A stretch of 64,000 nucleotides of DNA. It comes from Syncephalis fuscata S228 (Eukaryota; Fungi; Zoopagomycota). Positions 321-47,945 of this stretch are shown here, piece after piece. The stretch covers positions 1 through 64,000 of the forward strand of contig JAHLTZ010000054.1 in NCBI GenBank assembly GCA_025786725.1. The letters are read 5' to 3'. The position numbers were made by a program, and so were the translations under genes. The stretch's first letter is position 1; each line of letters starts with the position of its first letter. The notes beneath the pieces were generated by a model. The model did not search any database. It was given only the letters and a program-made list of their open reading frames with translations, and was not told where the DNA came from.

Positions 321-1559
321 AGAGGAGAAGAAGACTAAGGACGAAGAAGAGGCGGAAGGAGAGTATTAGGAAGAGTGTGACAGTGGTAAAAAACGACCAA
401 GTTTAAAAGAAAAGTCAGAAACGATGATATTGCCAGCATTGGTGGGAATGAGCGTCAAGTCCTTCTGGCCCTGAAACGACCAATGTTGTGACGATAATGT
501 AATAGCTGAGCTATTACAACGAACTTGGAAGTTTCGGCCTTTTAATAATAGCGTTAATAATAATAACGATAATACCTGTAGTATTATTAATAACTATAAC
601 AAGAATAAAGTAACAACAATAGCAACAACAATAAAAATAACAACAATAGAACTAGTATTGATAATAACAAGTAACAGTTATATTAGTGCAAATGCTATAA
701 TTAATACAAATTACAGGCGCACCACACACACAAAGAGAAAGATGTGCACGCGTAAAGACCACATGTTCGCACATTTTAGTAATGTCTTCTATGATGGATA
801 TGGACATGCACACGATTCTAAAAGTAGAGAGGATCAAAAATGGTAGAGCCTTAGTTAACTAGTTCTATTGCTGTGAAAAAGGTTCGATGAACTGAGCCAA
901 GGAAGCGTTGATAATAGCAACGCTTGATAGACTGGTTTGAATAAGCAAGGTGCTAGCAACAAATGGCTGTTTTTTAACATTGCTGCCATTTAGTATAAGG
1001 CTGCCAAGGCGACTTGTAGTTTATTCGTGCCAAAAGTGGAATGAGTATTGCATGGACATACCGTGCAGGTGCATATGAATGAGTGAACAATAAGACTATG
1101 ATAGTTATGGATATACATTGTTTGAATATTAAACAATAAGTTTAGTTAACGTATCTTTATATATACCAGTAATTGAATTGTGCTTTGACTTTTACATTTT
1201 GAGTTATTAAAATAAAATTCACTTTAATAAAAGTCATGCGGCTATGCACAACATAGTTATATTAGTTTCTATTAAAATATTGTTAATAAATTGGTTTAAA
1301 TAAACAATGTAACATACTATTTGATTTTATTGAAACATTTGAGGTTGATTATTGTTGTTGGCTATGTGTAGAAAGATTGATTAAATATTAATAGAAGCCA
1401 TATAATTGCAACTCCATGTCATTCCGCATTTGCTGTTATTGCATCTATATACAACATGGATTTTTATGTCTAAATGGTCTCTTCTATTTTTTAATATTCT
1501 AGTATTGCATTTTGGGCATATTGTGCTGTAAGATCAATATTAATATAGTTATTATAAGT

Positions 1560-3075: not shown

Positions 3076-4118
3076 TGTGCAAGAACACTAGTAATAGCTT
3101 AAATGTAGCAGTAATAGCAACAGTAAAGAAAGAACGTGGGAAGCAAGCAATCAGACAGGTACACTACTCGTTACGTCACCTAAGCTTGTTACTAGATTGA
3201 TAGTTTCAAATTCAATAGTTTTTAATCAAGAAGCTACCATACTTTGACTCTCTAGCTTCAAACTGGGACAAAAAATCCATAACTTGAACAATAAATCGTT
3301 AGTCAGTTTTTACTACTGAAAAGTGGTATTTGTTGAAGCAGTGTCATATCAACTTCGATTGAATTAATCGGAGTTGAATTAATCAGTACTACTTTCAATA
3401 TCGAAATGGATATGAAATAGTATTTTCATGTCACTTACAATGAAATGTTACATTTGATTACGATATTGATGCAACAGCAGAATATTGGAAAATAAAAGAG
3501 GCCATTTAGACGCAAGAAAACCACACTGTACGTAGTAAAAACAATAACAACAGTGGAACAATATGGAAGCATAATCATATGGCTTTTATTAATATTTAAT
3601 CAATCTTTCTACGCATGGTCAACAACAACAATAATTGGCCTTGTGGATTGCATAGTCAAATGAGCATTATAACTATGTTTGCTGTGCATAACAGTACAAA
3701 TTGAATTGAAACAAAATTTGCTTTGAAGGCTCCAAATGTGGGAGTCAAAGTACAACTTAACCATAATAAAATCTAGATTACGTAAATGTTAATAATAATA
3801 ATAAGTAGATCGATCGTTAGTAAATTCTTTGTAAATCAGTGTGTTCATGTATAGTATTTATTATTAATGTGTTCTAATACTACTTATTAATTGGCTAATA
3901 AAAATAGTGAAATTCAATTATTAAACTGATGGGAATGATGATGGTGGATATCAATTTGCAGTCACATCAAGATCTGTATTAGTTTGATCATCATTTGATA
4001 GCAAATAAAAGGAGCGTATTTGATATGGGATGGACCGGGGCAGTTGGCCACGTCTTTCTGCTATCCCACGGCTGTTATAGCGTATATTTACTGGTTTTTC
4101 TATTGACAGACTACTACT

Positions 4119-7983: not shown

Positions 7984-10900
7984 ATGAATGGGCGTGACCG
8001 TCAGATGTCGGGTGCATCTACGCTACCCGATGACCGTGGTGGTGGATCCTATGCTAACTATCCAACACCATCTTCTATGACACCATATGCCAATGGTGGA
8101 GGAGATGCTTTAGCCGAACAAGTAAGTTAAATATATAGCTATAATAGAATGATTAATAACCTATTATGAATAGGAGGCACATCGATATTATCAACAACAA
8201 CAACATCGATCTATGCATACATCGTCTCATACTACTTCACATCGACACGGTTATACATCTCAATCTGATTTGGAAGCATCTGCTTTACATTATCATCACC
8301 ACCAACAACAACAACAGCAGCAGCAACAGCAACAACAACAGTCGCACCATCACCACCATCAACAACAACAACAACAACAGGCAGCATCATATCATCAGCG
8401 TCCCTCGCATGGCTATCATACTTCGTCTTCATCTGGACATTCAGCCAATTATATGCAAAAGCCTTCAAGCTCACATAGTACGGCACATCAATATCCATAT
8501 CACCACAATTTGCATACAATGCACCATGGCTCTTCACTATCACCGGTACAGCCACCACGATCTGCTTATGCGTATACCGGCCATTCGTCTACGCATCATC
8601 CACACCAACCACAACAAACAGCTCAAACACCAGTGCAACATTATCGTGAGCCTGTAACACCGGTACAACAACACTTTCAATCTAAATATGCCGATAAACC
8701 AAATCATAATGACGCAGCTGATGCAATGAATGCCTATAGACATACACATCATGCCTATCATCCACACGACCGCCGTGGATCTATATCGCACTCGCATGCT
8801 CATATGACACATCCAACATCAAGCCCTGCTTACCATTCGGTTGCACGTCAAAGTGAATCCGCAGCCACGATGCATCATCGACAACAAGGCCTACCGAGTA
8901 GTGGCAGTACAGCAAGTAGACATATGATGGATCCACGCTACACATCACATAACTACATGGGCACTTCATCTGGCCGATCTGATTCTAGAGTAAGTTAATT
9001 AGAATAATTTATTGTATTTATAACAATATTAATGAATGATATAGTTGCACTATTCAGCCGATCATCGAGAATCGCACGTTAATAGTAGTGGCATGCCTAG
9101 TAGTCATGATCCAAATATGGCTTATACTGCTAGTTCAGCACATACAACCGGATCACACGTACATTCTAGTGGTGGTGGTGGTGGTGTACGTGAAGTATGG
9201 GAACGAGGTGACAGAAGAGCCCATAATGTACCAAATGATTGGATGGAGTCTAATCGACCTGGAACAAGTTATCATGATATACATGATGAACGAGCATATC
9301 GTCAAGTGCCACCAACATCTACAAAATCATCGGTAGTAACAGCAGCAGCAGCACCACCAAATACTACTACACCCACGATAGCCAGTGGACGTCATCGTGC
9401 TTCATCCATTTTATCAAATAAAATGATATCTACACGACAAGAACAGCATCCACATCATCAACACCACCAGCAGCATCATTCACAACAACAGCAACAACAG
9501 CCATCGTCACAGCAACAGCAACAGCATCAGCATCATCCATTGGCGCCATCAACACCAGCATCTGGATATTCATCGCATACACCCAATCATACATTACCAA
9601 GTCATGCTAAATCGTCACAAATAAGTCAACAGTCAGAATTGCGTCCTCGTTCAGCATCAACTAGTATTTATCCTACCAATGGAGATATGTTGCCTGGACC
9701 AAATGAATTAAAACGAAAAGTGGAACAGCCGCGTACAAGTTCTAGTATTGCACCTACACCGCCATTATCAAAACAAATGGCTACTTCAGAAGTGACAAAG
9801 CACGATACTATGCATAGCGCCAACACTGGCATAGAACGTACTCATGCTTATACGGCAGATACACATAGAGCGAGTCAGCATCAACATGTGCCAACAAGCC
9901 ATAGTCAAACGGAACAGCAGTGGAGAGATGCGCGATATTTACAGACTCAAGCTGCTTATCGACATATTGGACGACGTGCATCGAAAGATATGCTAGAACC
10001 CGACACGAATACACCTATGGAAATGACGCCATCTTCCCGAAAACTGTATGATAATTCGTCTTCGGCCAATGCTTCATCTGCACATAGCTCTTTATATTAT
10101 AATCGTGAAGATATAATGCATAATACACTGCCTCGTCGACGTCGTAGAAGTTCTGTTTATGCCATGGGCGACAAGCCATTAATACCACCATATTCAAGTA
10201 CAAAACCGGCCCCACTTGGCAATGACCATAGTGAGCATTTACCGCCAAAAGGACTGACTGAAAATGATGCAGCCAACATTCTATGTAGTCTTCATCATGT
10301 GCAGCCCTCAGCGGCCGAATTAGACACTGAAGCAGTCGATTCACCAGCAAATTTAATTAACATAGCTCGTGAAAAGGCCGCCAACGAACTAATCCACGTA
10401 GAATTGGATCCAGTTGTTGCAGCATGGGCAGCGGGTAAACGTGCAACATTACTTGCTTCATGTGAACCGGTCATGTCACCCTATGGACCACAACATATAG
10501 TATCGGAACCCGAGCTAGCCGAAGAGGAGGAAGAGGAAGAAGAAGAGGAAGAAGAGGACGTAAAAACTAATACAAAAGTGCCACTTTCACGATCCAGTAC
10601 ATTAAATTCAGATCGACAAGATGACGATAATGATCATAATGGTGGTGGTAATAATGGTGGTGCAGCTATTTCATCGCATTCATCTGCCGATTCGTATTCG
10701 ACCGCCAACGATACAGGTAAAGAACCAAATGGACGTGACCATACAAGTTCGGGCAACGACAAACAGCACACATATACGTCGAATAGGTATAACAATACTG
10801 CATCTACATCAAATGGCCATCAATACAATACAACAGAAAGAAGTACACAAAAACGACGAGCCTCTGAGGCTGGTTTAAAAGAAGGAGACAATGAGGATGG

Positions 10901-12406
10901 CACCATGTCAACCAAGCGTATTCTACTGCCAGAATCGACAGCTACCACATTAGCACCACCAATAATGATTGATATCAGCGATTCAGAAGAGACGAGCGAG
11001 CATAAGAAACCGCTTTCAACACTGCCTACGATGTCAGTGGCGGTAACATGTAATCAAACATCGCCCACTTCTACTTTAAATTCTGTCACTAGTGAAATGA
11101 ATGGTAAACATTTACCGGATATTGAATTACGCGCCACCACACCATCGACTGAATCGGATGAAAATGGCATAGAAGAACTATCGGATACATCAAAACATAA
11201 CGGTATAAGGACGTCTAATGGCGAGGACAGTCAGCAAAATACAGCATCACGTCGACTTCAAGCAACACGTATGAATGGTGATAAAACAAATGCCACATTA
11301 GGATCAAATGGCACACGCAGTTCTGTATGTCGACGACCCAATGTGTCACGTACCGACGATAACGGAAATAACTACAGTTTAATTGACTGGTCAGCATTAG
11401 AATTGCCAGAAATGATTAAAGTAAGTCATAATGATATAATAAATAGAGGTGTACTAATGATGATTAGACACAAGCCTACCAATTACTACGTGATGTATTA
11501 GCGACAAAGGATCTACAGCGCGTACGACCAACAACGCGACGACGAGAAGCGCTACTTATGGCCATTACACTTATTCTATGTCGACAGTCTAATATTCCTC
11601 GAACATTTGCCGAACTAAGCAAAGCGTCACAAGTACCAAAACGTGATATTGGTGCCTGTTACAAATGGCTTTGTTGTACACTTAATCCCGATATGGTCGT
11701 TGTTCGTCATATAGAACCTGATGAATTTATGGTAAGCTGATTTAATAAATAACGATATAACAACAACAACAACAATAATAATAATGAATAGAAACGATGG
11801 TGTAATACATTGCAGATTGAACCATTTATTCTACCTGCAGCTGTTTTCTGTTATCGGGCCACTGATCGATTGGGTGTCTTTTCAGGCAAATGTCCTACAA
11901 GTGTAGCAGCCGCGAGTATATGGTTTGTTATCTGGTCGATTAATCACGCGGCCACTATTCTTGAAGAGGTTAAACGGGGCAGTGATTTTGGCAAGATGCG
12001 TTGCTCATCTTCGGCAATTGTTTTTAATCATTTACATATACGTGACCATAAGCCACGCATTTTGTGTGATCAAAAAACAGTAGCCTCGGTGGCTGGTGTC
12101 GTTATTGCTACACTGATGAGCACGTATAAAGGAATGGTACCTTACGTACGGGCGTTGTCACCACCAGGCTTTTTAGAAGCCATTGTGGCGGATGATGTAC
12201 GTGTACTGCCTGACGACTCTACTGGATTTGGTAGATTGTATGTACTTGGTCAGGCAGTTGAAATGCTACCTAATGTATCGGAAAAGCGAGTTTTCAGCGA
12301 CATTATAGCCAATGCTAAAGATGATGAAGAGATCGATGATGACGAGGAAGTCGATGAGCCTGTTGTTATTAACGAGGAAATACTACAAACTGCCAAGGTT
12401 GAATAA
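7984..12406 (+). CDS. TFIIB-related protein: ~1,100-aa His/Gln/Ser-rich disordered N-terminus plus C-terminal tandem TFIIB cyclin folds
   Basis: Exons ~7984-8120, 8174-8989, 9045-11420, 11468-11731, 11791-12406. C-terminus LCRQSNIPRTFAELSKASQVPKRDIGACYK...FM/KRWCNTL...GKCPTSVAAASIW...QKTVASVAGV aligns with TFIIB core motifs (CRQ..VPRTFKEI, GRSPISVAAAAIY, QKEI..IAGV). Confidence 0.85.
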
Positions 12407-12628: not shown

Positions 12629-14109
12629 TTATAATATTTCAAGTTTGTCTCCACAAAGCGAACGAGGTGAATGTAACCATGTACCAATAACACCAGTATC
12701 ATTCAGTGATTCTTCTATCTTTCGTATAGCTCGTTCATTTGCGGTGATGGTCGTGGCATTTAATGCATCACCAAGCCCGAATACCGTTTTCTGTAATGGT
12801 GTTAATCGACGATTTAGTGTTAAAATACGCCGACTAAGTACAATAGAATGGGCCGATGGATTTATTAGTACAGCTTCTGTATTCTCATGATCTGCTGTAG
12901 TCGTATTAATGATTGATAATTGACATGAATGTGGTAAACTTGGTATTATTGCACTTGTGCCGGGGGATGGGCAGACTAGCCATTCATTAAATCTATAGCG
13001 TATTGTTTCAGCGCGTAATTTCTCTTTTATTCCACCTAGCATATCAATAATTTGATAGAATTTATCCCATACTGACTGAGCAACAACGACACGAAATGAC
13101 GTTGCATGTTGCTGCTGTTCTTGTGGCTTGTAATAGTAACCAAGTAGAATGTAGCGTAATTCTTGTAAGCTATCTGGTTCATGTCGAGTCATTTTTATTT
13201 GTCGATCGAGCTCAACAACACCAGTTGATTTAATTAATGATAATTGATCTTTTGATAAATGTGACATGTCTGAACATAAAGCAATTAGTGTTGTTGTGTC
13301 TAAGTTAATCGTTGACGACCATGGATATTGAGATAGATTTCGAATTAGTGTACTTGAAGATTATTGCCAAGTAGCATTGGTTCACATGATGGCTGGGATA
13401 ATACTAAAATGCCAAAATCATTTAATCGTGCTAATAACCGGTTACTTAGTTTGTAATGTGACCAAACAGCAATAGATGGTATTTGATACTGACAAGGATG
13501 CAAGCAAGCCGCGTTTAAATATCTTTTTAATGTTTTTAACAGCGCCTCTAATTAATGAAATAATATTGAATTATTATTAGTAATAATCTACTATATTTAT
13601 ATTTACCTTCTTTTAATGTAGATAATGGTGATGAAGTCGGAGTAGACGCAGATAATGATTGTCGCGCGATAACTTTAATCCAACGAGTTCCCCAATTAGC
13701 AATAACATCAATTTGAAGTGGCGAGTCGTTATCATTTGTTGCATTTTACGATTAATAGCAAGCACTCCTGGTTGCGTACCAATACACGCGGACATAGCCT
13801 CAATAAATGGTATATTTGAGCATGTAACAAGGGATGCAATAGATGTTGTTGTATTATTATCATCAAGCGTCTATATAATTGCATAAGTTGGTATGCCTTT
13901 TGGTATGCTATAAATCATATATTTACATGTGATAATAATGCCATTTCCGTCTCAAGCATAGTTAATAATTGGCTAAAGCTCTGATGATAGCTGTGCTGTT
14001 CATTTGGTACCCAATCAACTATATTTGTTGTCAATGTATCTCGACAGTCTTTGAGATATTGTCGGGCTATTTTGGCTCGATTGAACAATATATTTAATTG
14101 TTCGGTCAT
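12629..14109 (-). CDS. UPF0415 / DUF1308 (C7orf25-like) protein
   Basis: SNIPFIEA, IDVIANWGTRWIKVIAR (after a 1-nt frameshift at ~13745), INLDTTTLIALCSDMSH, KFYQIIDMLGGIKEKLRA, VFGLGDALNATTITAN, HSPRSL. Confidence 0.8.
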
Positions 14110-14534
14110 AATGGCAGTGTTATAATAATATAGTAGTTAAATGTTTAATTGAGTGCAAATATGCTGTTGTGAGGATTCTGACTAAATAACGATAAAATAA
14201 TAATGGAATGGAGATAGATGTTTTATTAAAAAATAGGCAATCATGTGCGTATTTATACCGAGCGTACATTATCCGTGTACTACAAATATAGAAGTGACGT
14301 ATACCTTTAAGGCCTATGATTGATAGCAACGCGTGATAATGATTTCTTTTGTACAATTATTTACACTGTATGAATATATATTTATGACAGTATATAGATA
14401 GATTGTAATAAATTGCCAAATAATGTATATAATCTGCCATAACTTGTTATTATAATTCATTACATCAACTAGTGCTGTTATTACCATTTCTTGTAATTAG
14501 CAGCTTATTGTTAACAATTATTATTGTATTTATC

Positions 14535-14965
14535 TATGCCATTATTATTCAGTATGCATATGTTCACTACTCGCCTATTCACCTATATCATTTACACTGT
14601 AGACTCATATTATACCATATCACTCTATGATATATTAGTCACATTTTATTTGTTATATATAGCAATACGCTTTATTTATTGGATTATACACATGTTATAG
14701 CTTCGGCTTATTATTTGTACAATCCCTAGTATATATTAAATATACTGTATATTATTCTGGCATATAATAATTACACAGTATTCAAACTAATTTTATTTGG
14801 CACTAGTTTTATTGATTATAAATCCCAGTTTATATGGGTATACAATGGGAATGACATAAATAGAGAATAAATGCATATCGAATAATAAATCTATGATGAT
14901 AAGTATTTGATGATTGCTATCACTCACCATTCATCATTATGTTCAATACATTTATTTAGCTATTA
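14535..14965 (-). mobile_element. Degenerate foldback/MITE-like non-autonomous element, copy A
   Basis: Internal inverted arms (attattattcagtatgcata ~14542 versus atgcatatcgaataataaat ~14871). Reverse complement resembles 20700-20800 and 47520-47900. Confidence 0.6.
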
Positions 14966-15132
14966 GGCTAAACGACAAACTCATAAACTTTAGATTAAAT
15001 TAAAAATAAAGCCATTAATAAAACAACAGTTTAAACTGTTTTTATAACACAATGTAGTATTGGTCAATTAATATTATACAATTGCCTTTATTAATACATG
15101 TATGTGTGGTGTGTTAGAATAGAATATAATAC

Positions 15133-17476
15133 TTAGTATACACGTCTGCAACGCCGAATTGGTCGCTGATTGTTTATGTCACGTTCGACTATACTGGTAC
15201 ACGTCAGATGTTTATGTTTATGAATCGGCATAGTGGCCATCTTTCGATTCTGCTGTGCATCTGCTTCTTCTAAATGATGTTGCTCTATACAGTTGGATGC
15301 TTGAACTGATGGTGCTGTTTTGTTTATAGAATGATTGTTTGTATCACGTCGCTTGGCTTCTTTGTCTATTAACAATAATAATATTTAGTATGTGTTATTT
15401 GTATTTATATGCCTAATTACCTATATTTGACGCTCGTGTCTTTTTATTAGACACTGCTTTGTCATTAATCTTGACTGCATTATCTGCCTTTCTTTTCTTG
15501 CTTTCGTTACTAGTGTTTGATGCTGCTTTAGCAATAATCTTTGCCTTCTTTTTGCCTTCTTTGCTGCTGTTTGGCGCCATCTCATTCATAGCCTCCAGCT
15601 CTCTTTTACCTCTTCCTTTGCTAGTCGTTGACAAATGCATCTGTTTATTATGCAATGCTTCTAGCATTTCTTTTATTGCAGTCAATTGTTCTCGGTGACC
15701 TTTTTCCATAGCATCTATCTTGTGATTTAGCGCCTCGTTATGTTGCTTCAGTGTATCGTTGTCTTTTTTCAATACAGCAGTGTCTTGTTTCAATTGCTTA
15801 AACATATCAAATAAATCTGACATAAAAACCTCGTTCTCATTTCCCTGTCTGACAGATGCAACTGGTTGCTGAGCGTTTAATTTCCCTTTGTTAGTTACTG
15901 CCATTGATGCCGCTGCTTCCAGTTCACTTTGTTCCGATCGCATTGTTGACAGCAGCCTGAAAGCCTCTTTTGTACCAAATCGTTCATATGGGCTTGTTCT
16001 GGTCAGCATATCGATCATTGTATACATGTTTGGGCATATATTAGAATACTATGAACATTACAGGTTATTAGTAAAGCATGGCTAATTTCAGCTGCAGTAT
16101 GATCTTACTTTAAGCGTTTCTTCTATTGTCTTTCCAACAGAATACATATCCAAAGCAGTGGTGACATAATCCTTGTATTCTGGGGCCATGTATCCTTCAG
16201 TGCCGCCAGTAATCCCGTTAGCATTGGCATCAGCATACTCATCAGGTATCTGTGCATCTTCGGTGACATAAACCGATCCAAAATCGATTAACTTGACATC
16301 GTTGGTTTCTTTGTTAATTCGTACATTTTCAGGCTTAATATCGCCATGAATAATACCGATATTATGTAGTGCCTCAACAGCCTATTATAATATTAGCAAG
16401 ATATCTAACCATCCATCGCTGCCAGCATACCTTTATCAAACTTTCAACATACGTGATTTGCTCAGCAGCGTTATATTTGTAGTGCGTCTTTGCTTCGACG
16501 TAATCGGTTACCATGGCTGGCATATGAAGTAAAGTAAATCGCTGCTGAAATGCTGGTAGATACTTTGCAACATTTGGTACAGTACATAAATACTGGTACA
16601 ATGCAATTTCCCGCTTTCCAGCATCAATATTGGAAAATGCTTTAATAACACCCAGTGGCTTTCGCTCAGAATCAATTATTCGAATGACCCATGCACCACT
16701 ACCTTTTACCTAATCATATATATAATATTAGTAATTATGGTATATAACTGCACTATGCTTAATCCCAACTTACAGAACTTCCAGTTCTTTCAGGTCTTTG
16801 TTCAATCATAAACCAATTTTCTTCCAAAGTTATACCACTCAAATCTAATGCAACTTGAACACAGAAACTATTTTCGCCTGCAATTCTATGTGCTTTATAA
16901 ATAAATATGTAAGTTAATGAAACAATACTTATTATGCTTATAATACTTACCACGTATACGCTTAATGTCTTGAATTGCCGTACTTAGAGATTCCAACCTG
17001 TTGCGCTTATATAATGTAAGCAAATTCCGTGCCCAATGATGTGTCCATAGTTCTTTTTGAGTATACGCGTATTCACGATCTTCTTGGCTAACTCTGGCTG
17101 TTCCAACAGGACAACAATTGCATTCACAGCTGCCTCTTGTAATTTCTTATAAAGTTGCTTCAGTTCTTCCTTCAGCTTTTCAAAAGACTTTAAGCGATTC
17201 ACATTATCTGGCTCTTGTTTAGTCAGCTGCCTTATTCTTTCATAACATCTACTTTTGATTTCAATAACACCCTTAGGTACGTATATTGTCTCATCGTATT
17301 TTTCTATCCAGTCTGCGCCTTCTGCAACTTCTAAAGTCATGACTGAAATGATAACAAGCTGAATAAGCCTGAGAAACAAGGTAAGTTACAGAAAGCAATG
17401 AGACAAGTAAAGGTAAAGAAAAGAAGTATACGTCAGTTGATGGCTGTTTATATTCATTTGTAGACATTTGACACAT
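15133..17476 (-). CDS. Lineage-specific Ser/Thr protein kinase with N-terminal helical region and C-terminal coiled coil and basic tail
   Basis: GVIKAF, REIALY, IIHGDIKPENVRI, KLIDFG, GTEGYMAPE, DMYSVG in spliced exons. ORF 15133-15375 splices in as the last exon. One frameshift in an A-run at ~17055. Start codon uncertain. Confidence 0.85.
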
Positions 17477-18625
17477 TTTAACTATCTGTAAATCAATTAA
17501 ATTAAAAAACAAAACATGACATTTTACACAACATTGAAGGAATATGTTGATAACAGTGTAATGTTGAAAGTGGGTTGTGTTTTATACCCACTCTATTAAG
17601 ACAGATAGTTATAAATTATATAGTATCAATTAGTAAAACACATTATAGCGGTAGTGTAATAAGTTATTCAATTGGTGATGTTTGGTGGTCATATTATGGC
17701 GATTTTAGGCACATCGAAAGTATCTCAGTAATAGACAATCAGCGCATCTCAATGCTGTGTAAAATAATACATAAAAATACATTATTTATAATATCGAAAA
17801 GATGTGCTAATAGCAATGTACTAAAGTTGATTTACATTAACAAGTATTTTGTATTTACTTTTCTGATATTATAGCATAAATCTGTATAGTTATTTTGCTT
17901 TATATGTTTAAACTATATAAAGGGATGAACCCATTGAAATAGTATGTATTAGATCGTGCAAACAGTAGGTATTTTCACTGACTGGTATATGCAGTTCGAT
18001 GACACAACAAATAGTAACGCCTTTGCTTGTAGTTGTGATATTTCCGTTCATGTTATGCAATTGTATCATAATCAACTGATACAACTAAAAACGTCATAGA
18101 TTTGTGATTTTTTTAGCTTTTAAATGATATGCATGACGATAAAGTAATATTTAATATACGAGTAGAATCCAGGTGTATTGTCTCTATTACGTGATGGTGC
18201 GATCAAATTCGCTGCCATATTGGAATGTCTGTTTAAATTTGTATAACCAACGTAGGTGCTAATGTCCAATCAGCCTGCAGTTGGCAGTCGTTTGCACAAT
18301 AGCCTAAGACACTGCCAAAGGCTGCCGCTACTAGTAATACCTAGACGCATTAGTTTTGATTTTACATTGTACGTCATACCAGTTATTGCGCCTTATAATG
18401 TAGTCGATCATCCTTAGTTATCTGCACGCGCAATAAAACAACTTTCTTCAACTTTGCTCTGAACTAAGCTGTTTACTTTTTGTTTTTTAAACCAATATTT
18501 ATTGTAAGCTATTTTATATTCAACATGACCATCACTGTTCAAGATGAAATAAAGCCAACTTTTTAAAAGTAAAGAAAGAGTATGCAGATATTTGGGAAAG
18601 ACAAGAGGCGCTTGATTTACAATTA

Positions 18626-20155
18626 ATGGAGAATCCTGACGTCTCAGAGCAAGATAAGAACGATGCAATGTTTGAAACGGCTTATTTAACCAAAAAAACA
18701 TCACTTATGCAAGAAAAACTAGTAAATATTGTAGAATCTATTAGTTCACACCTGGATATTTCCTCGGCTAGTTTTTTATTGGATGATACTGAACTCTGGC
18801 CCATTAACTGGATGCTAAGGATTGGCGACGCGTTTTCTGCCAAGAGAAAAGACGAAGTCAAGTACATTATAAGTAAATATAGTATTTTTGTGGGTAAGTA
18901 AGCTTTATTTATATTATCTTAGATTACTGACATTGTGAATAATAGATATTGCTGAAGCATTAGCAAAGGAAATCAATTTAGTCACTCGTCACGTGACATA
19001 TACAGAGACTACCAGCACTCGATGGAGCTGGCATTTGGTGGTGTGGATGGAAAGCCATTTTATGGCGTAAAAGAGAAATATCATCATTTGTACCGTGTTA
19101 CCCATACACCACGCAAGTGTGAAAATGATGATGAATATAAGGTAAATAATAGTATTAAACTACAACAACACTGACAAGTATTTATTAGGACTTAATGAAA
19201 TACATTACTAGAAAAACAGTGGTATCATACCTCAAGATGCTATTGATGCTACCTTCCCGTTAAGAGGAGATGATAAAAACATTATTTCATCATTGGAAAT
19301 GGCTAAAGTCATGGGTGCCATTTTACTTTTATCTGCAGATAATTATCCCGTCGAAATGAATGAAATGGGCTACAGCTCACGCGTTCATAGCTTTTTCTAC
19401 GGTGCTATGAGCAGCGTATTTAAAGACAAAACTGAATCTAGTCTTTTTAATTTTAGTAATGGCGGTAAGCTACTTTTTTATTTTAGCGTTTAATTAAGCT
19501 TTAAACAGTGGGGTCAGTTGGGTACCAGTATGCGGCTACAAGGCTGGACAGCAGCCGTCTGTATATTATCCCGATTTCTCCTTTACCATGAAAGGAGTGC
19601 ATATGGTTTTGGGAGAGTCAAAGATAGACATAAAATCAGACATTGAAACCAAGAAGCATTTGTGAGTGTATAAATTTTATTGCAATTATGTTGGTTAATA
19701 ATCATTAATTCAGGGAAAAGCTAATGCTCCAATGTAGACATGCATTTTTGGAGCAAAAATACTTGTTGAATGACATTGAGCATTGCCAATCATCGCCATT
19801 TGTCTATGGAATCTATGCGAAGGCGTTCTGCTTCCGCTTTTTTCTTATGACCCAAGAATCAAGTAACCAATTGCAATTCCATGAAATTGCCAGCATTGAT
19901 ATTGCTTCTGACAGCGATGTAGGTTCGATATCCATCGAGCGTGCATTGTATGTATTCGCTACTTGCAACAACATCGCAAGTGCGTGTAAGCAGCGAATGG
20001 AGGAGTGGATGGAGATGGGTGTAGTTTTTAATAAACTAAAAATACTATCCGACTCGACAAAAACTGTTTCGTCAAAGGCCACCGCCCATTTTAAAAGAAG
20101 AAGCACCAGTAGTTGCAAAGATGACACTGAAAATTCAAAAAAACCAAGACTTTGA
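18626..20155 (+). CDS. PD-(D/E)xK restriction-endonuclease-fold protein (CRN/CR-REase-like), multi-exon
   Basis: Spliced reading YYPDFSFTMKGVHMVLGESKID...HLEKLMLQC...VYGIYAKAFCFRFFLM; ends KKPRL. Needs three 1-nt restorations in A-runs (~18965, ~19215, ~19540). Confidence 0.7.
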
Positions 20156-20619
20156 TTTATTTTTAGTAATCAATTTAAACTTGTATAACTAGTAATTAGT
20201 TAGAATAGATAAATAAAATACTTGAAACATTGCTTATAACCGTATATAGCTTTAAACATGGCAAATTGATTTTTAACAGTTAATGCCAGTAATCGGAATT
20301 ATACAGATGTCGAGTTAGCATATTGAATATTCAACAGTTCATCACTGCCTGCCACTTTATCTATGCAATATATCCTTGAGTTATTTGAATTGTGTGTTCA
20401 TATTGCAACTATTTACATTCGATACAGCTACGCTTATTAACCAACTCCATAATACTATCGATAGTGTACTTGTTAGTTGTTTGATTTATTATGCCCGTGT
20501 TAGCACACTAATAAATATGAACTCTGTTATTCCATGTTTTAACTTTTAATTTGAAAAGCTTATGGGCCTGACGTGTAATTATTGAAGCAACAACGTATAT
20601 TAATCATATAAAATGTTGT

Positions 20620-21620
20620 ATGTCATTTGACATTACAAACGGTTTATTAACACTTGATATGATTTAATAGTCAAATGACTAACATTAATAACATCCAATC
20701 TATTGAGCATGATGATGGGTGGTGAATGACATCAATCATCAAATACTCATTATTGTAAATTCATTATCCAGTATGCATATATTATCGCAGTATGTGTTAT
20801 TACTATATATATCCGTTACTTTGCTTGATTAACATTAAAATCATAACTAATTGACATGGCCTAATTTATTTATAAATAATCTTAATAAACATTGCTTTAT
20901 TCATATTCATATTATTTGTTTTATCAATATAACTCAGTGAACAAACTAAGTACAATATGTCAATTTTATTAATAAAAAAGTTGGAACCATACTGACAACG
21001 GCTATAGACAGCTTATAGTCAATGTATAATAAAATGATAAACATTATAATGGATACGCAATATTGAACGAGATTAGCTATGTCAAAGTTATTAAGAATAT
21101 ATGCATGATCAATGAGCGGAATTAGTCGACATTTGTTAATAATAAAGCTAAACCAAAAATAAAAGCAGCATTGGATAGAGAAAGGCTAGTTGAGTATATA
21201 ATGATATATGTGATGATGTGACGATTAAATAAAACTCACCACTTGTCCTCATGTTCAATAGATTGAATGTGTAGTTCAATTACACGAATGTTATTAAATG
21301 TAGTCATTTGACCCTCAAATTATAATAAAGCATTAATAAATTGTTTAATATACAAAAAAATAGTTATTTTTATTTAATTAATAAATAATGTAATATATAC
21401 AATCCATAAATCGAGTGGCATTGTATATAAAAAGACTATGAACAAATTGAATATAGATGAGGGAATTGTTTAAGTGGTGGAATAAAATAAAAAATAAAAT
21501 TAATAGCATAAAAGCAAATATAATTATAGAATATGCCATCAGTAAAACGATAAGTACAATAAGAAGAATAGATAACAAACAATAAAGACAAATATATTTA
21601 TAGAACAATGTCATCAGTAA
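20620..21620 (+). mobile_element. Degenerate foldback/MITE-like element, copy B
   Basis: Forward arm 20641-20800 and reverse arm 21235-21350 are inverted copies. 21300-21620 is a direct repeat of 32785-33080. Confidence 0.7.
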
Positions 21621-22327
21621 ATAAGAAGGATGAATATCAATGCATAAACAAGTGTCATTATCATAGAACATGATATTATCATTGACAGCTAAACTTTTAA
21701 GCATTAAATTCAGTATATAAGCAACAGTGTTTATTGAATGTTAAATAAAATACTTGTAGACATACCTATTCTAAACTACGCCTTGTATATATAATTAAAT
21801 AGTGATCCGCTAAGCGAAAAAAGAAAAACGGTTAACAAAAAATAGTATAAATGGTCATACCCAACACACCACCTGGGTAAAATAAATGTTTAAAATAGCA
21901 GTTGCTAATACAATGTTCTGTTACAATTAATCAATTTTATTTTATGAAAATAATAATAAACAATATTATTACGTTAATATTTACTGTGAATGATGATTTA
22001 AACACAATTTAATCTAATTAACGCATTAAAATTAATTGCGTAAAAAGATTTACTGCGTTGAATTAGGGGGGGGGGATTAAGGTAAATGTCAATCCATTCT
22101 TTCTATTGAACATAAGCCTGGGTGTTGAGTAAAGTAAAGATCAAAATAATAGCAATAGTAAATACTAATCAAACGCGTGTTATTATTTTGGGGAAAGGGG
22201 AAACATAAAATGATCAACGTCATTGTTATTAAATAAGATGTTAGTATTTTATTGCTTTAATCACTTTTTGCTCTTCATTTGCTATTGGCTTAACTTGTTT
22301 CCATTGCACGTAGATAATTTATACACA

Positions 22328-23939
22328 ATGGGCGATACTGGTAATTGGTGTCTTATCGAGAGTGATCCGGTAAGCACATCTATTTGTACTATATAAATGT
22401 AATGGTAACGTTCATTGCTATTAGGCGTATTCACCCAGTTGATTGCGGATATGGGCGTCAGCGGTGTTCAGGTCGAGGAGGTATGGGATTTCGATACCCT
22501 ATCGCAGGTAGAGTAGGTGGCGGTTCTATAACAACAAAATATAGAAGTATTTGTGGCAGTAAAGAATATTTATTTAAATACTTATCGCTTACATTATGTA
22601 GACCTGTATACGGACTTGTCTTTCTATTCAAGTACGAGTCGAATAGAGGCACAGGACAGCCATCGACGACTGCAGCAGCCAATGCTGATGATATGATGGA
22701 TGCAACCGATTCAATCTTTTTTGCGCATCAAGTAAGTAGTTTATTTGTATATTAATCGGCTATTGAACTTGTGGTCCTTCTAGGTCATTAACAATGCATG
22801 TGCGACGCAAGCTATTCTATCTATTTTAATGAATAGTCTTGATATCGAATTAGGCGAGGAGTTGACGCAGTTCCGCGAATTTACCCAAACATTACCACCC
22901 GATGTAAGTAAATCTAGCAATAAATTGATTAAATTGACCATTTTATCTTATATAATTAGATGAAAGGACTTGCGATATCGAATAGTGATAAAATACGCTC
23001 GGTGCACAATAGCTTTGCCCGGTAACGATAAAGCTATTTATTGAACATGTAACTACCGGCTTATTAAACAATTTGTTAGATCGGAATCATTTATTAATGA
23101 TGCTTCAGTGCCGGCCGGTGAAAACGACGACGTGTTTCACTTTGTAAGTTATATGCCAATCCATGGTGCACTCTACGAACTTGATGGATTACAGCCAACT
23201 CCAGTGTATTTGGGTAAGTCATTATAGTCAGTATACAATTAATAATAATCATAAATTATGTATAGGCCCTTGTACGGAGAAAGACTGGCTTGAAAAGGTT
23301 CGGCCAATCATTGAAGCACGTATGGCGAGGTAAGAAGTTGGAAAGAAAAAGAACACTAAATATTGAATGCAATAATAAACAAATGAGTAATATGACTAAT
23401 TATCATTATAATGATATATAGCTATAGCTCGTCAGAAATACGATTTAATCTTATGGCATTGTGTAAAGATCGTACAATGGTATTGACTGAGCAATTGACC
23501 ACGACAGATCGACGTCTTGATCTTGCTCAAAGGAAACTATCAGTAAGATGAGACTTAAATTAAATGAAATTACTTTTATTAATATATATATATATGTATG
23601 TATGTATATTAGGGCGAAGATATTAGTGGTGAGCAGAATAAGTTGGAGGGAGATGCAGCACTACCTGAAGATCCTGAAGCATTACAACGACTTGTGCAAA
23701 CACTGCACGGTGAACGCGATCTACTTGGTGTATTTCTTAGCGATGAACGTGAGAAGTTGGCGCGGTATCGTGTAGAGAATGCACGGCGCAAGCACAACTA
23801 TATTCCATTGATTCATACACTATTGCGCCAACTAGCCGCTAAAGGTAAATTGGCTGGTGCACTTGCTGAAGCAAAAGAGAAGGCAACAGAACGTGTAGCA
23901 CGTCAACGTCAGTTGAAACAACAACAACAGCAACAGTAG
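22328..23939 (+). CDS. UCH2: Ubiquitin C-terminal hydrolase UCH37/UCHL5 (Uch2)
   Basis: WCLIESDPG, PVYGLVFLFKY, FFAHQVINNACATQAILS, FHFVSY, LYELDGL, RFNLMAL, ENARRKHNYIPLI. Confidence 0.96.
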
Positions 23940-24110: not shown

Positions 24111-27003
24111 TTAGCGTCGACCACCTCGCACCACAAGACCAACATTAATTGTATCGCCATCATTTAAGTTGTAATAAGCAAGGCTAAATTGCGGCTTCAT
24201 CACCGATCCATTAGGGCCACCGGCTGGACAGGTAAGCTTTTGTCGATTGGCCGGAACGTCAAACAATGCTGAAATACGATCGCGTAAATCACCGACTGAC
24301 ATTGTCAATCAATATTCTGTAGCTTATGTGATTGACCAGTAAGTTTACCATCTGACTTCTCAGGCATATTAACAGCTTGTAGTGTAATGGTAATTGGCGA
24401 CTATAATACAGAAAGTGTTAATAAATGAATTTGTTGATAGTAAGCTTATTAATAAACCTACCTCGTGTGTATTCATCCATTCTTCAGCGGGAATGAATTT
24501 ACCCTCCACGCGTATCTTCTTATTTGTCGGTTCCTCTTCATGCTGTGCTTCCTCGGCTGGACGACCGTTCATATAGTCGTTTGTATGTAGTGTTGATTGA
24601 GGCATATGTGGTGACATATGATGCATCATACCCGAAGGCATGGGTGGTGGCGGCGGCATAGGAGGCATAGCACCATGAGGTACAGAAGGTGGTGGTGGTG
24701 GCGGCATATTACCATAAGACATAGGTGGTCCTTGAGAATAGCCATAAGGTGCACCAGGCATACCATGTCCAGGTGCTGTTGGTGGTGGCGGTGGGGGCAT
24801 TGTATTCTATTACAAATAAATAAGTAAATCACTGTCAATCAATCAAACAATCTTTATTTAATAATAACTTACCACCATTGTACCAGGATTGCCATAATTA
24901 CCACCATGAGGTCCAATGCGATTAGTTTCTTCCCTATTATAGATATTATTAATAAAAATGAAATATGTACTAATGGCTAGCTAACTTACACCATCATCTT
25001 ATTACGCTGAATAGCGGCCATTTGCTCGTCGATTGACATACCAATTGCTGCACGTTCATTAACTGCTGGTATACTGCCTGAATGTCCATCCCAAATGACC
25101 TTTTGTTTCTCGGCTGCCTTTAAGCGTTCTCGGTCTTGCATTACCTTTTGACCGATACCCACTTCATCTGTACCAAAAATATCTGATCGATAACCAGAAA
25201 TATTTTTTAAATACTTATTGATTTCTGAACCTGTATGAATGTATTAGTATCCATATTAATGTACAATTACATATATATATATAATTTCTTACCTTCCATT
25301 TGCAAGTTACTTTCACGGTTCTTTGCTTCGGCTGCTTGTTTCTGCTCCTTCCATCGTGGATCCAATAGTTCAATACGAACGTGTTCCTCAATCTCAGATA
25401 CAGGAATGGCTTTACGACAAAGTTGACAAATCTGAGTAGGCTCGTTAACTTTTGGTCCACCTGCGGCCAATCGAGCTATTAAATAAATGGTAGATTAAAC
25501 ACAATGATGAATTAATTAGTTCAATAATTGGTATTATATATATATATAAAATAACTACCTTTTGGGTTGTAATCTTTGACAATCTTCATTTTAGCTGACA
25601 TGTCAGGTTTTTTCTGTGTAGCTGGCATGGTTGGCTGTGCCATATCCTCAGCATCCGACTCGACCATATCCTCTTCAACCTATATTCATTAACGTCATTA
25701 TAGTAGCAAATTACTAAATAGCTAGCTATACTTACATCCATGCCATCATCGCCATTATTTTCGTCATCGTGTTTTGAAACAGTCGGTATCATGGCAGCCA
25801 ATCGTCGTTGTTCAAGTGTCATGTTCTCCAAGTCGCGTAGATTCAATGGCATTGGTAGATTGCTTTCTTCGTCAGCTTCTGTGAATTCAATTGTCTCTAC
25901 CACAACAAAATCGTGCCAGTCAATCGACAAAAATGCCACTATTGGTCATTATAATTAGTTAGTTGATTACATTGGTATAATCTGTGCCATGGTAATATAC
26001 CTCGTTCTTTCTCGGCCTCATCTTCAGCCTTTTTACGCTCTGCTTCTACATAAGCAGCATAGCTAACTCGTTCCATAACTCGATTCATTAACTATATTTG
26101 CCAATAAATTAATAATCTGTATCTAATAATACAACCATTTCCAATAAACATGCTTACCTGATGCTTATTATTAGCAAATTCATCTACATGTTTTTGTAAA
26201 CTACTGGACGGCATTAGTACTTTTGAGTATTGTTCGACCAGTTGGTTAAAGTATGGGAATAGACTGTGACTCGGTCTTAGGAAATCGAACTGATAATTAC
26301 GTTGTTCGCGCTGTGCTAACGAGTTAACAAATTGACGGCCATTACGGGCTACAAATTGGGCCGTTAACTTAATAATATCCCTATAATTAATCGATTAGTT
26401 AGCTTGTCAAACATTTCTATTGGTATTATTTAAATTTATTACTTACAAATCCTGTGCTGACAATGTTGGAATTATTGCAGAAAATTGATAAGCTGCTGGT
26501 TCTTTAGGAGGTGCACGGCGTTTTGCTGCTGTCTCTTGTGCACGATCTACATCGTCTCCAGTTGCTCCAGAACCACCAGCCACACTTTCCGGCTTTAATT
26601 CTAGTATAATTTAATAGCGTTACTACATCATAATAGACTAGTAACATATATCCTGCCTACCTCTTCCTGCTTGTATTTCCTCGATACAATGCTGATAATA
26701 AGGGTGATATGGGTCATCAGGTCGAAGAAAACAAAACTTTGGATTACTACGCTCGTTATCCCGAATACGCTCTTCAAACTGAAGACCGTTACGCGCCACA
26801 AACGTCGCCGTTTTATCAACAATACCTATCCAGGTGTAAATATAGTATGTCTAGCTCATTGAGTTGAATCTATCACACTTACTTCTAATCTCTGGCGGCG
26901 GCAACACTAACCCCGTTGTAGGCTTGCCATTGCTACTCGATCCACGACCAATTGTCGGGATCTCTGCCGATCCCGTGGTAATAATATCCAACTGGGCCGA
27001 CAT
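24111..27003 (-). CDS. PRP21: Splicing factor 3A subunit 1 (two SURP domains, PRP21 domain, Pro-rich region, C-terminal ubiquitin-like domain)
   Basis: PPPEIR..VDKTATFVARNG, IIKLTAQFVARNGRQF, FDFLRPSHSLFPYF, IDWHDFVVVETIEF, HVRIELLDPRWKEQ, SLAYYNL; one 1-nt deletion at ~24308. Confidence 0.96.
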
Positions 27004-30841: not shown

Positions 30842-32086
30842 TTATTTTATATTAACAAATCCCAGTAAAGCCATGACCTCATTTGAAATTGCACAGTCAT
30901 CATAATTGCTTGAAGATAGCAATGTCATGGCTTTTAAAAGAGGATATAATGATTTAATATGTCCCCAATTTTCAAACTTTAGTTGCTTCACCGTAAAGCG
31001 GAACCCACGACTGCGCATTTTAGCAAATTCACTCTTGATTATATTGTAAAGATCATCTTGGTCTAGTTTTATGTTTAGTTTTATACTATCTTTTCCAGTG
31101 ATTGCATAATAGATTAAATGGCTAAATCTGTAATCATCCGCCCAACAGCTTGAGCCAGATTTAAACGGTCCATTGAATTTTTTTGGTTGGGATAAAGCCA
31201 AGTTTACAACCTCATCGACACTTTGATACATAAACTTGACAACATCGTAATCAACAATGGTTACCAAAACCTTGTTGGTTTTTGGATTAGTATCGACAAC
31301 AATATCTAAAAGCAAATAGTTAGTATGTTGTCATCAAACGTCATACAGCTTACTTCTGCCAGCTACGTCACTGTGTATAATACCAACATGGCGTAAATAC
31401 AGCATACCTATATTTGATTATAGCCATCCATACTTTATTATTCAAATAGAATAAAAACTTACCTTGCATCAATTGATAGAATATCTGGGGCAAGTATTCA
31501 GCCTTTTCATGCAATGTTTTATCGCCAATAAAATTGTAGAATAGTTCGCCTGGTGCAAACGTGTAAATAAAGCAGCTGGCCTGTTTTATCCCAAAAATAT
31601 TCTTAATATTAAACCGCTTTAACGGTTTTATGATATTATTTTCTCCTGGAATATCCAGCTTATTGTTAACTCTGGCTAGTATCTAAATAATATATAAGTG
31701 GCCTGGTACTTTTAGTATAAATTACGCACTTACATCAAAAGCTTTGGTCTCAATTTTAGTTGTACGGCCATTTTTTACGCATTTAATAAAAGCATTGATT
31801 CCATTCCATTTTGTAGAACCAACACTTATTAATTTAGCTGCTGCTCTCCATTTAACTGGCGCTGTCAATCCATGCTTTTTTCGTGTTTCTGGATTATCTA
31901 AATAAATCTTCCCAACTCCATTAGGCATGATGCCAGCTATCAAACGTGTAGTGTGTTAACATTGATAATTACTATGCCCTATAGCTTACTGTTAGAGGCA
32001 CCATTTAAAGCATTGCATGTCGGTATAGTAGATAATAATATGGTTGTACAAACAGTGACAACAGTAAATATACCAGCCTTAATCAT
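30842..32086 (-). CDS. Secreted divergent protein kinase-like protein
   Basis: Exon 1 MIKAGIFTVVTVCTTILLSTIPTCNA (signal-peptide-like); later AFIKCV, IETKAF, QIFYQLMQGMLYLRHVGIIHSDVAGRNIVV, VTIVDYD. Confidence 0.8.
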
Positions 32087-32668
32087 ATTAAAAGCGGTAT
32101 TTTGCTGTTTGTGTTTCGTTTGAAGTAGTAAAAAAAATAGAGAAGTTTATAGAACCTTGAGGATAACCATTAGCGCTGTAGAGTTTATAGCCAACTGAAT
32201 AAAAATAATTTCAACTCAATTGGCTTTGGTCCACGTTGGATATTTCACTGATAAAGAACATAAATAGTAAATTAAAAGCATTGGTGTTGCTTTTTAAACT
32301 TAAACTGCTATTAAACGCAATACAACATGACGATTTAACCAAAATAAAACAATAATGCATCAATTGGGCATTTCCATTTTTGTTTACACCAACAACCCAT
32401 TCGATGTGTGTAGCCATGATAGTTTAAAAACTGGTGCGTTACTTATTTTTTGCACTTGTGCTAAAACTTCTATATTATGTCTAGAAAGAGCTATTTACTT
32501 TGAGTTTATACTTTTTATTTTCAAAAAAATATGGACCCAAACTCCACTTCAGTCAAATTCAATGCAAGTATTATAAAATACCAACAAGCTTTACTATATG
32601 TTATTTAAGATTAGTGTAATGTTAACAATATGTTTATTATTCTACTCCGAGTAGAATAGTTTGGTGGC

Positions 32669-33080
32669 CAAATAACTATATTTAATAAAATCCAATTTAT
32701 TGAACATGATGATGGACGGTGAATAACATTAATAATCAAAATACTTATTATCATAGATTTATTATCATAGATTATTATCAGGTTTAGTCATTTGACTATT
32801 AAATCACATTAAATTATTAATGATTTGTTTAATGTTTGCAAAAGAATGCTTATCATTATTTAATTAATAAATGAGATAATATGCAAGCCATAAATTGAAT
32901 GGCATTATACATATAGAAACTATGAATATATTGAAATACAAATGGAAGAATTGTTCAAATGGTGGGATAGAATAAACAGAAAACAATAAAGTAATTTATA
33001 GAACAATGTTATCAGTAAATCAATAAGCGTAATAAGAAGTATAGATAACAAACAATAGATACAAGCATAGTTATAGAACA
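32669..33080. mobile_element. Degenerate foldback/MITE-like element, copy C (internally deleted)
   Basis: Forward arm tccaatttattgaacatgatgatggacggtgaat directly abuts reverse arm tagtcatttgactattaaatcac; the right part repeats 21300-21620. Confidence 0.7.
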
Positions 33081-47459: not shown

Positions 47460-47945
47460 AAATTAATATTAAACATTTTACTAACAATTCGATGTGATTT
47501 AAGTGTCAAATGACTAAATTTAATAACATCCAATTTATTGAACATGATGATAAATGGTAAATAACATCAAAGTTTAAAATACACATCATTGTAGATCTAT
47601 TATCCAATATATATATATGTATTATTTTATGATATACTAAACACATTTTATTTTGATATGCTGCAAGTATGTATAGTTTGATTAATAAAACAAGCAAATT
47701 TATAAATAATATAGAATAAAATAGATATGCAATGTCAAAGCCATAGTCCAATATGACGCAATGAGTGGAAAAAGTAAGATGCGTTGATTTATATAAAAAA
47801 GTGATGTATCTAGTATGTCATAAAATGGTATTTACTAGTATGGATAGTATGGAAATGATATAAGCGATTAAGGATATATACATATTGGATAATAAATCAA
47901 GGTGTAATAATGTTAAATGACATAGTAACCGTTTTTATAATAGTA
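47460..47945 (+). mobile_element. Degenerate foldback/MITE-like element, copy D
   Basis: gtcaaatgactaaatttaataacatccaatttattgaacatgatgat arm; partial inverted arm catattggataataaatc at ~47881; interior matches the reverse complement of 14540-14690. Confidence 0.7.

What the first reader, a model, noticed from the sequence alone, without database searches (positions are those of the whole stretch)
14535..21620. Repeat-bracketed head-to-head kinase + PD-(D/E)xK nuclease cassette: candidate mobile toxin-antidote or effector module
Seen: an ~8 kb AT-rich gap between housekeeping genes (DUF1308, UCH37) holds only two genes, transcribed divergently across ~1.1 kb. One is a kinase with all catalytic motifs (HGDIKPEN, DFG, APE); the other has a PDF...GESK nuclease motif. 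Neither shows a signal peptide, and both end in basic NLS-like tails (KKRK, KKPRL). A copy of the same foldback repeat sits on each side (14535-14965, 20620-21620), like a composite transposon. Known: REase plus kinase is the domain pairing of Crinkler/CR effectors, and of Podospora Spok meiotic drivers, where the nuclease domain kills and the kinase domain gives resistance. Inference: this could be a two-gene version of such a poison-antidote system, or a nuclear effector pair, moved by the flanking repeats.
Basis: partly seen in the sequence, partly recalled or inferred. Interest (0 to 1): 0.85.

Follow-up and report, generated by a model that had tools for sequence, protein, structure and literature searches.

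The report
Orphan kinase–nuclease gene pair in mycoparasite
In a fungus that parasitises other moulds, a spliced protein kinase gene and a predicted DNA-cutting gene sit back to back and recur together on a second contig; they likely form a poison-and-restraint pair of the Crinkler/Spok kind split over two genes, while the repeats around them belong to a common repeat family and probably do not form a dedicated transposon.

Summary
The two genes are real. The window matches a Syncephalis fuscata contig. A run guessed as RNA holds one contig that splices the kinase over five introns. The model has 640 codons, all ePK motifs, a helical N-terminus and a coiled coil. The partner has a PD-x13-E-x-K motif, but no family, structure or usable fold was recovered, and only one outside relative was found among 1.84 billion proteins. 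The frame breaks look like assembly indels: they also hit DUF1308, and independent contigs fill most of them. New here: a 93-99% identical nuclease and kinase pair has consecutive accessions on another contig; a haplotig is not excluded. The composite-transposon reading is weak. The flanks are only 68-79% alike, the left outer arm is missing, the family recurs across the window, and an ordinary reductase-like gene is bracketed in the same way by a related repeat. Best reading: a two-gene, Crinkler/Spok-like nuclease-plus-restraining-kinase module (0.4). Toxicity and rescue are untested.

The parts
14509..14952 (.). Left repeat copy: a decayed foldback (28-nt inner arms at 14542 and 14861) plus a long arm on the - strand (14860-14952); the outer long arm is missing
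15132..17340 (-). Protein kinase gene, 6 exons, 640 codons: helical N-terminal region (about 1-130), non-RD ePK-like domain with a short C-lobe (about 150-390), coiled coil (about 430-490), basic tail. Introns 16893-16950, 16710-16773, 16382-16430, 16049-16108, 15366-15420. One frame break near 17091
   Evidence: spliced 1884-nt contig of run X3 skips all five introns and carries one extra letter at the break; model with X at the break; Pfam
17341..18524 (.). 1184-bp divergent spacer (GC 0.315), inferred to be a shared promoter region
   Evidence: function inferred
18525..20155 (+). Predicted PD-(D/E)xK nuclease gene, 5 predicted exons, about 480 codons, ending KKPRL; frame breaks near 18552, 19000, 19210 and 19460
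   Evidence: annotated model P0002; DNA contigs add one letter at 19210 and 19460/19462 and show gaps across 18483-19009; introns predicted, not shown spliced
19570..19623 (+). PD-x13-E-x-K motif (PDFSFTMKGVHMVLGESK)
20598..21607 (.). Right repeat copy: foldback with arms at about 20600-20790 (+) and 21190-21383 (-), plus a tail shared with the copy at 32.9-33.1 kb; member of a dispersed family
   Evidence: up to 13 different contigs of one run pile up at one place here, with loose ends into unlike sequence
22095..22163 (+). Further decayed arm of the same family just upstream of UCH37
   Evidence: 67-75%
12629..13870 (-). Left neighbour DUF1308 gene (context); it also carries one-base gaps that run X3 fills
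22366..23939 (+). Right neighbour UCH37-type ubiquitin hydrolase gene (context)

Best explanation
Two divergently placed genes, a spliced protein kinase and a predicted PD-(D/E)xK nuclease, recur together on a second contig and likely form a two-gene conflict module in which the nuclease would cut DNA in the nucleus and the kinase would restrain it, as in Crinkler-type and Spok proteins. Shown: the kinase is spliced and carries all catalytic motifs; the pair is linked in two places of the assembly; both proteins lack a signal peptide and carry basic clusters. Inferred: nuclease activity (motif only); most frame breaks being assembly errors; restraint by phosphorylation or binding (analogy only); action in the fungus's own nuclei, where loss of the kinase would be harmful and so keep the unit. 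The flanking repeats are best read as independent old insertions of a dispersed foldback family into an accessory island. They may have served as recombination ends for the duplication, but they are not shown to be transposon ends.
For: Second linked pair: nuclease P0001 (KAI9590927.1) and kinase P0003 (KAI9590928.1), both on a 25,003-bp contig, while the window's own models lie on a 100,838-bp contig. The DUF1308 search returned one S. fuscata cluster with 1 member on 1 contig, and none on the 25-kb contig (132-422 aa searched). Run X3 lists no changed letter between 23.5 and 36.7 kb (all 12 rows shown), so a haplotig is not expected on that side. A DNA contig with 13 other letters runs from the kinase 3' part into the left repeat arm (14893-15851), so a second version shares that flank. 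Contigs of run X3 carry both versions at 15283 and 15312. Of the 15 listed coding differences in the two genes, 9 are silent, against 21-33% expected (P 0.001-0.03); only 40 of 116 rows were shown. The literature documents the domain pairing: REase toxic and kinase regulatory in about one sixth of CR C-termini, and helical headers exist (PMC5289972 section 11); nuclease kills and kinase resists, also in trans (PMC6660238 passages).
Against: No tool recovered the nuclease fold: Pfam 0, NCBIfam 0, PHROGs best E 0.34, PDB 0, AlphaFold2 pLDDT 32 and 37. The only outside relative (P0004, 147 aa) does not cover the PD...ExK motif, so its conservation is untested. Co-occurrence rests on two near-identical copies in one assembly, which may be alleles: DUF1308 shows 3 changed letters in run X3, and UCH37 was not searched. 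Nothing links the two proteins biochemically. A shared N-terminal header was tested and was not significant (828 of 10000 shuffles). There is no sequence link to CR or Spok proteins.
Confidence: 0.4

Rival explanations
1. Two unrelated, fast-evolving accessory genes happen to share a repeat-rich intergenic island, and the second copy is the other allele or a plain segmental duplication. The kinase is a lineage-specific signalling kinase and the nuclease-like gene is a relic or has its own job.
For: Seven repeat loci lie in 64 kb, and a short-chain-reductase-like gene at 2.2-3.1 kb is bracketed by inverted copies 76% alike. Another orphan kinase-like gene lies beside the copy at 32.7 kb. Diploids are reported as common in these phyla (PMC10386755 passage). 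There is no functional link between the two genes.
Against: No DUF1308 copy was found on the 25-kb contig, and no allelic differences are listed over 23.5-36.7 kb. The head-to-head pairing of exactly the two domains that CR and Spok proteins fuse is unlikely as a random draw, though this was not quantified.
Confidence: 0.3
2. A nuclear effector pair delivered through the haustorium into the host mould: the nuclease damages host DNA and the kinase tunes it or protects the parasite.
For: Zoopagales mycoparasites form haustoria in Mucoromycota hosts (PMC10386755 passage). Most Rhizophagus CRN-like proteins lack a signal peptide (PMC6131194 passage). CR headers can be helical. Basic clusters are present.
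Against: No signal peptide and no LxLFLAK-like or HVLxxP motif. No expanded family: 2 hits for the nuclease exon and 1 for the kinase exon in the 5.8-billion collection. A gene in the same window shows that this fungus does use ordinary signal peptides.
Confidence: 0.15
3. One reading: a composite transposon in which two foldback elements carry the pair from site to site. In a bolder form, the nuclease is itself the enzyme that mobilises the foldback family.
For: The same family lies on both sides. The second version shares the left flank at least as far as the repeat arm. Mobilisation of a Crinkler-like gene by flanking non-autonomous elements is reported in fish (PMC12957317 section 8). CR nucleases are traced to transposon-linked proteins.
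Against: The left outer arm is missing. The arms are 68-79% alike, while the gene copies are 93-99% alike. The arms next to the genes face outwards. No convincing target-site duplication was found: only AT-rich 9-10-mers. No transposase ORF lies in the interval.
Confidence: 0.12

Closest known systems
CR (Crinkler-RHS-type) proteins with REase + kinase C-termini, e.g. CRN8 (Zhang et al. 2016, seen only through the review PMC5289972)
   Same: A nuclease of the REase type paired with a protein kinase; helical N-terminal regions; no signal peptide; basic clusters; repeat-rich setting.
   Different: Two separate divergent genes rather than one polypeptide; no LxLFLAK or HVLxxP header; no sequence hit to any CR protein; two copies found rather than a large family.
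Podospora Spok spore killers (PMC6660238)
   Same: PD-(D/E)xK nuclease plus kinase, coiled-coil segments, intracellular; the Spok kinase is reported to act in trans, so a split form is mechanistically possible.
   Different: Spok is one protein with a C-x3-C-x13-C-x5-H cluster and an ELK-like kinase. Here the cluster is absent, the kinase keeps ePK motifs (HGDIKPEN, APE), the host is a zoopagalean fungus without asci (own knowledge), and no homology was detected.
AACRNL, Crinkler-like selfish gene of fish (PMC12957317)
   Same: A toxin-like gene proposed to be copied with the help of flanking non-autonomous elements.
   Different: An ADP-ribosyltransferase and a single gene, with recognisable hAT or mariner ends; here the flanks are decayed and unclassified.
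MITE/foldback non-autonomous DNA elements (label recalled, from no call)
   Same: Non-coding, AT-rich, long inverted arms, many dispersed copies.
   Different: No superfamily, target duplication or partner transposase could be assigned.

Membership tests
Eukaryotic-type Ser/Thr protein kinase | Gly-loop, VAIK Lys, alphaC Glu, HxDxKxxN, DFG, APE, subdomain IX Asp | tested here: met
   All present in the 640-codon model; Pkinase 70.9 bits against a cut-off of 31.7 for P0003. Non-RD (HGD).
PD-(D/E)xK nuclease superfamily | PD...(D/E)xK catalytic motif | tested here: met
   PDFSFTMKGVHMVLGESK; 60 of 20000 shuffles match a pattern written after the fact.
PD-(D/E)xK nuclease superfamily | alpha-beta-beta-beta-alpha-beta core fold | tested here: inconclusive
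   AlphaFold2 pLDDT 32.0 and 36.9; no profile or PDB hit. The helix and strand order fits by eye only (recalled pattern).
PD-(D/E)xK nuclease superfamily | Nuclease activity | not testable with these tools
   Needs an assay.
CRN/CR effectors | Ubiquitin-like header with LxLFLAK and HVLxxP | tested here: not met
   No match in the kinase model, P0001 or P0002.
CRN/CR effectors | Alternative alpha-helical header | tested here: inconclusive
   Both N-termini look helical and hit only coiled-coil-like profiles; CR header profiles are not held; likeness to each other is not significant.
CRN/CR effectors | REase and kinase in one polypeptide | tested here: not met
   Opposite strands, 1184 bp apart; the kinase transcript is complete on its own.
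CRN/CR effectors | Sequence homology to CR-REase families | tested here: not met
   phmmer over 1.84 billion representatives found the protein itself and one 147-aa fragment. A single-sequence search can miss remote families.
Spok | Single protein with nuclease and kinase domains | tested here: not met
Spok | C-x3-C-x13-C-x5-H cluster before the kinase; QxxxY after the catalytic motif | tested here: not met
   No cluster; the only QxxxY lies before the PD; features taken from PMC6660238.
Spok | Killing by the nuclease, resistance by the kinase | not testable with these tools
   Needs expression tests or crosses.
Composite transposon | Copies of one element on both sides | tested here: met
Composite transposon | Intact, matching outer ends | tested here: not met
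   Left outer arm at background level; arms 68-79% alike.
Composite transposon | Target-site duplication | tested here: inconclusive
   The ends cannot be fixed; only AT-rich 9-10-mers were found.
Composite transposon | Same unit at other loci, or an empty site | tested here: inconclusive
   Second linked pair on another contig; its DNA could not be read (no genome held).

The most novel reading that the evidence does not exclude
A split Spok: a self-maintaining two-gene poison-antidote element in an early-diverging fungus, with the nuclease and the protective kinase on separate, divergently driven genes, copied as a unit between foldback repeats. It would be an independent origin of nuclease-kinase drive outside the ascomycetes.
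Probability: 0.15. Interest if true: 0.8.

Novelty: new variant of a known kind. Interest (0 to 1): 0.45.

Why it matters
If the kinase restrains the nuclease in trans, this natural split would make an open question directly testable: how a kinase domain cancels a REase domain in Spok and CR proteins, which PMC6660238 leaves unresolved. It would also extend such poison-antidote elements to Zoopagomycota. If it does not, the locus remains an example of orphan conflict-like genes in repeat-rich islands of a mycoparasite, and shows that repeat bracketing in this genome is common and says little on its own.

Tried and rejected
No whole genome is held, so genome-wide tblastn and synteny were not possible. 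No RNA holder was listed; run X3 is only guessed to be RNA. X3 contigs cover the nuclease gene only in part (about 19.0-19.4 kb); the tool rules out ranking genes by this, so it is not used as evidence of low expression. Cover contrast in three DNA runs of one sample: unique bins inside the interval had cover in 14 of 15, 14 of 15 and 9 of 15 cases, against 6 of 36, 3 of 36 and 2 of 36 in flanks and a control stretch, with the repeat bins left out and bin sizes unequal. This would fit extra copies bounded near the repeats, but the runs were found with this stretch and holes prove nothing, so it is a lead only. Shared N-terminal header: rejected (one search used a wrong frame). Nuclease relatives: none in metagenome contigs (P0002; P0004), viral contigs, prokaryote genomes or plasmids. 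The ESM Atlas was not available. Two AlphaFold2 jobs gave unusable models, so no fold search was run. No complex prediction was run, because only partial or mis-spliced models without alignments were at hand. The best PDB hits of the kinase are generic (PknG 41.7 bits, eukaryotic kinases up to 37) and do not show a bacterial origin. Zhang et al. 2016 is not held. Paper searches that found no description of this pair. The library lacks most subscription papers, and no supplements were read; the Zhang 2016 supplements could list Zoopagomycota CR families.
Full report
Setting. The window is eukaryotic, with short GT-AG introns. Protein hits name Syncephalis fuscata. The window's own DUF1308 product lies on a 100,838-bp contig, the same length as the contig of nuclease model P0002. 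Zoopagales mycoparasites attack Mucoromycota hosts through haustoria (PMC10386755, passages seen). No whole genome was held.

The genes. Between DUF1308 and UCH37 I found two genes with starts at 17340 (-) and 18525 (+), 1184 bp apart. A 1884-nt contig of run X3, which is guessed to be RNA, skips five GT-AG introns of the kinase. Read with X at the single frame break, the kinase has 640 codons: a helical N-terminal region, a non-RD kinase with every catalytic motif and a short C-lobe, a coiled coil and a basic tail. KKRK is internal, not terminal. The second gene has five predicted exons and about 480 codons, carries PDFSFTMKGVHMVLGESK and ends in KKPRL. Neither protein has a signal stretch or CRN header motifs.

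Are the genes broken? Probably not. One-base gaps also interrupt DUF1308 (13358, 13742) and a gene at 24306, and independent contigs add one letter there as well as at 17091, 19210 and 19460/19462. For the breaks near 18552 and 19000, contigs show gaps in the right stretches, but 26 rows of that table were not shown. Nine of the 15 listed coding differences between versions are silent, more than the 21-33% expected (P 0.001-0.03). Only 40 of 116 rows were listed, so this is weak support for purifying selection.

The nuclease call rests on a motif. A pattern written after seeing it appears in 60 of 20000 shuffles and only once in the window. Pfam, NCBIfam, PHROGs and PDB gave nothing. AlphaFold2 failed twice (pLDDT 32 and 37). 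phmmer over 1.84 billion representatives found one outside relative, a 147-aa metagenome fragment, 41% identical over the C-terminal half and not covering the motif. The kinase N-lobe exon found only the second copy among 49 candidates. Both genes are therefore near-orphans.

A second linked pair. P0001 (nuclease) and P0003 (kinase C-half) have consecutive accessions on a 25,003-bp contig. Contigs show a second version about 1.4% different in the kinase 3' part, reaching into the left repeat arm (13 letters in 959), and about 7% different at the nuclease 5' end (20 in 284). It may be an allele. Against that, DUF1308 gave a single S. fuscata cluster on a single contig (only 132-422 aa searched), and run X3 lists no changed letters over 23.5-36.7 kb. 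UCH37 was not searched. I put a separate locus at about two to one (judgement).

The repeats. The same arm occurs at 14860-14952, 20600-20790, 21200-21383, 22095-22163, 32657-32869 and 47466-47616. Up to 13 different contigs of one run pile on the right copy, with loose ends into unlike DNA, so the family is dispersed. The two flanks are 68-79% alike, no more than other pairs (79-83%). The left copy has lost its outer arm, the arms beside the genes point outwards, and no target duplication stands out. An internal control weakens the bracket argument further: a short-chain-reductase-like gene at 2.2-3.1 kb (adh_short E 0.002) lies between inverted copies, 76% alike, of a distantly related repeat.

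Mechanism. Best reading (0.4): a two-gene module in which a nuclear nuclease would be held in check by its partner kinase. The steps from motif to activity, from linkage to partnership and from partnership to restraint are all inferred. The analogy is documented: REase with kinase makes up about one sixth of CR C-termini, with toxicity ascribed to the REase (PMC5289972, passages and section 11), and in Spok3 the nuclease kills while the kinase resists, in cis and in trans (PMC6660238, passages). Rivals are chance neighbours with an allelic or segmental copy (0.3), a host-delivered effector pair (0.15; PMC6131194 passages), and a true composite transposon (0.12; precedent in PMC12957317, abstract and section 8).

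Membership. It is not a Spok (separate genes, no cysteine cluster, ePK-type kinase, no homology) and not a canonical CRN (no header motifs, no fusion, no homology). It may work like them. It fails the intact-ends test for a composite transposon.

Novelty. No paper describing this pair or a split nuclease-kinase pair in fungi came up (listings seen only). Zhang et al. 2016 could not be read. The scan's own index held no look-alike; one note on the same genome describes a palindromic repeat array. Verdict: a new variant of a known kind, with a real but thin evidence base; interest 0.45.

Noticed in passing
window 30845-32086 (-): Orphan gene with a clear signal peptide and degenerate kinase-like motifs (LRHVGIIHSDV; IVDYD where DFG is expected), next to the repeat copy at 32.7 kb; no Pfam hit for three of its exons. 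Possibly a secreted pseudokinase effector.
   Followed up: partly
window 1348-1510 and 3469-3632: Inverted repeat copies (76%) bracket a short-chain-reductase-like gene; the dihydropteridine reductase label is recalled, not from a call.
   Followed up: partly
window 14.5, 20.6-21.6, 22.1, 32.7-33.1 and 47.5-47.9 kb: A dense, unclassified foldback repeat family with arms of about 190 nt and nested inner arms. A review passage says Zoopagomycotina have very few transposable elements (PMC10386755), so the family may be undescribed.
   Followed up: partly
window 13358, 13742, 17091, 24306: The assembly has frequent one-base gaps in coding regions, which distort the public gene models (P0001, P0002, P0003 and P0005 are truncated or spliced around them).
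   Followed up: yes
window 8174-12406 (+): A long low-complexity gene ending in a TFIIB/cyclin-like repeat (PF00382, E 0.002).
   Followed up: no
window 36.7-39.0 kb: A block in which runs X1-X3 show changed letters, next to 13 kb without any: patchy heterozygosity or another duplicated stretch.
   Followed up: no
P0004 (JGI/IMG, 2.8-kb contig): The only outside relative of the nuclease; its contig was not found in the metagenome scan, but its upstream part would test conservation of the PD...ExK motif.
   Followed up: partly
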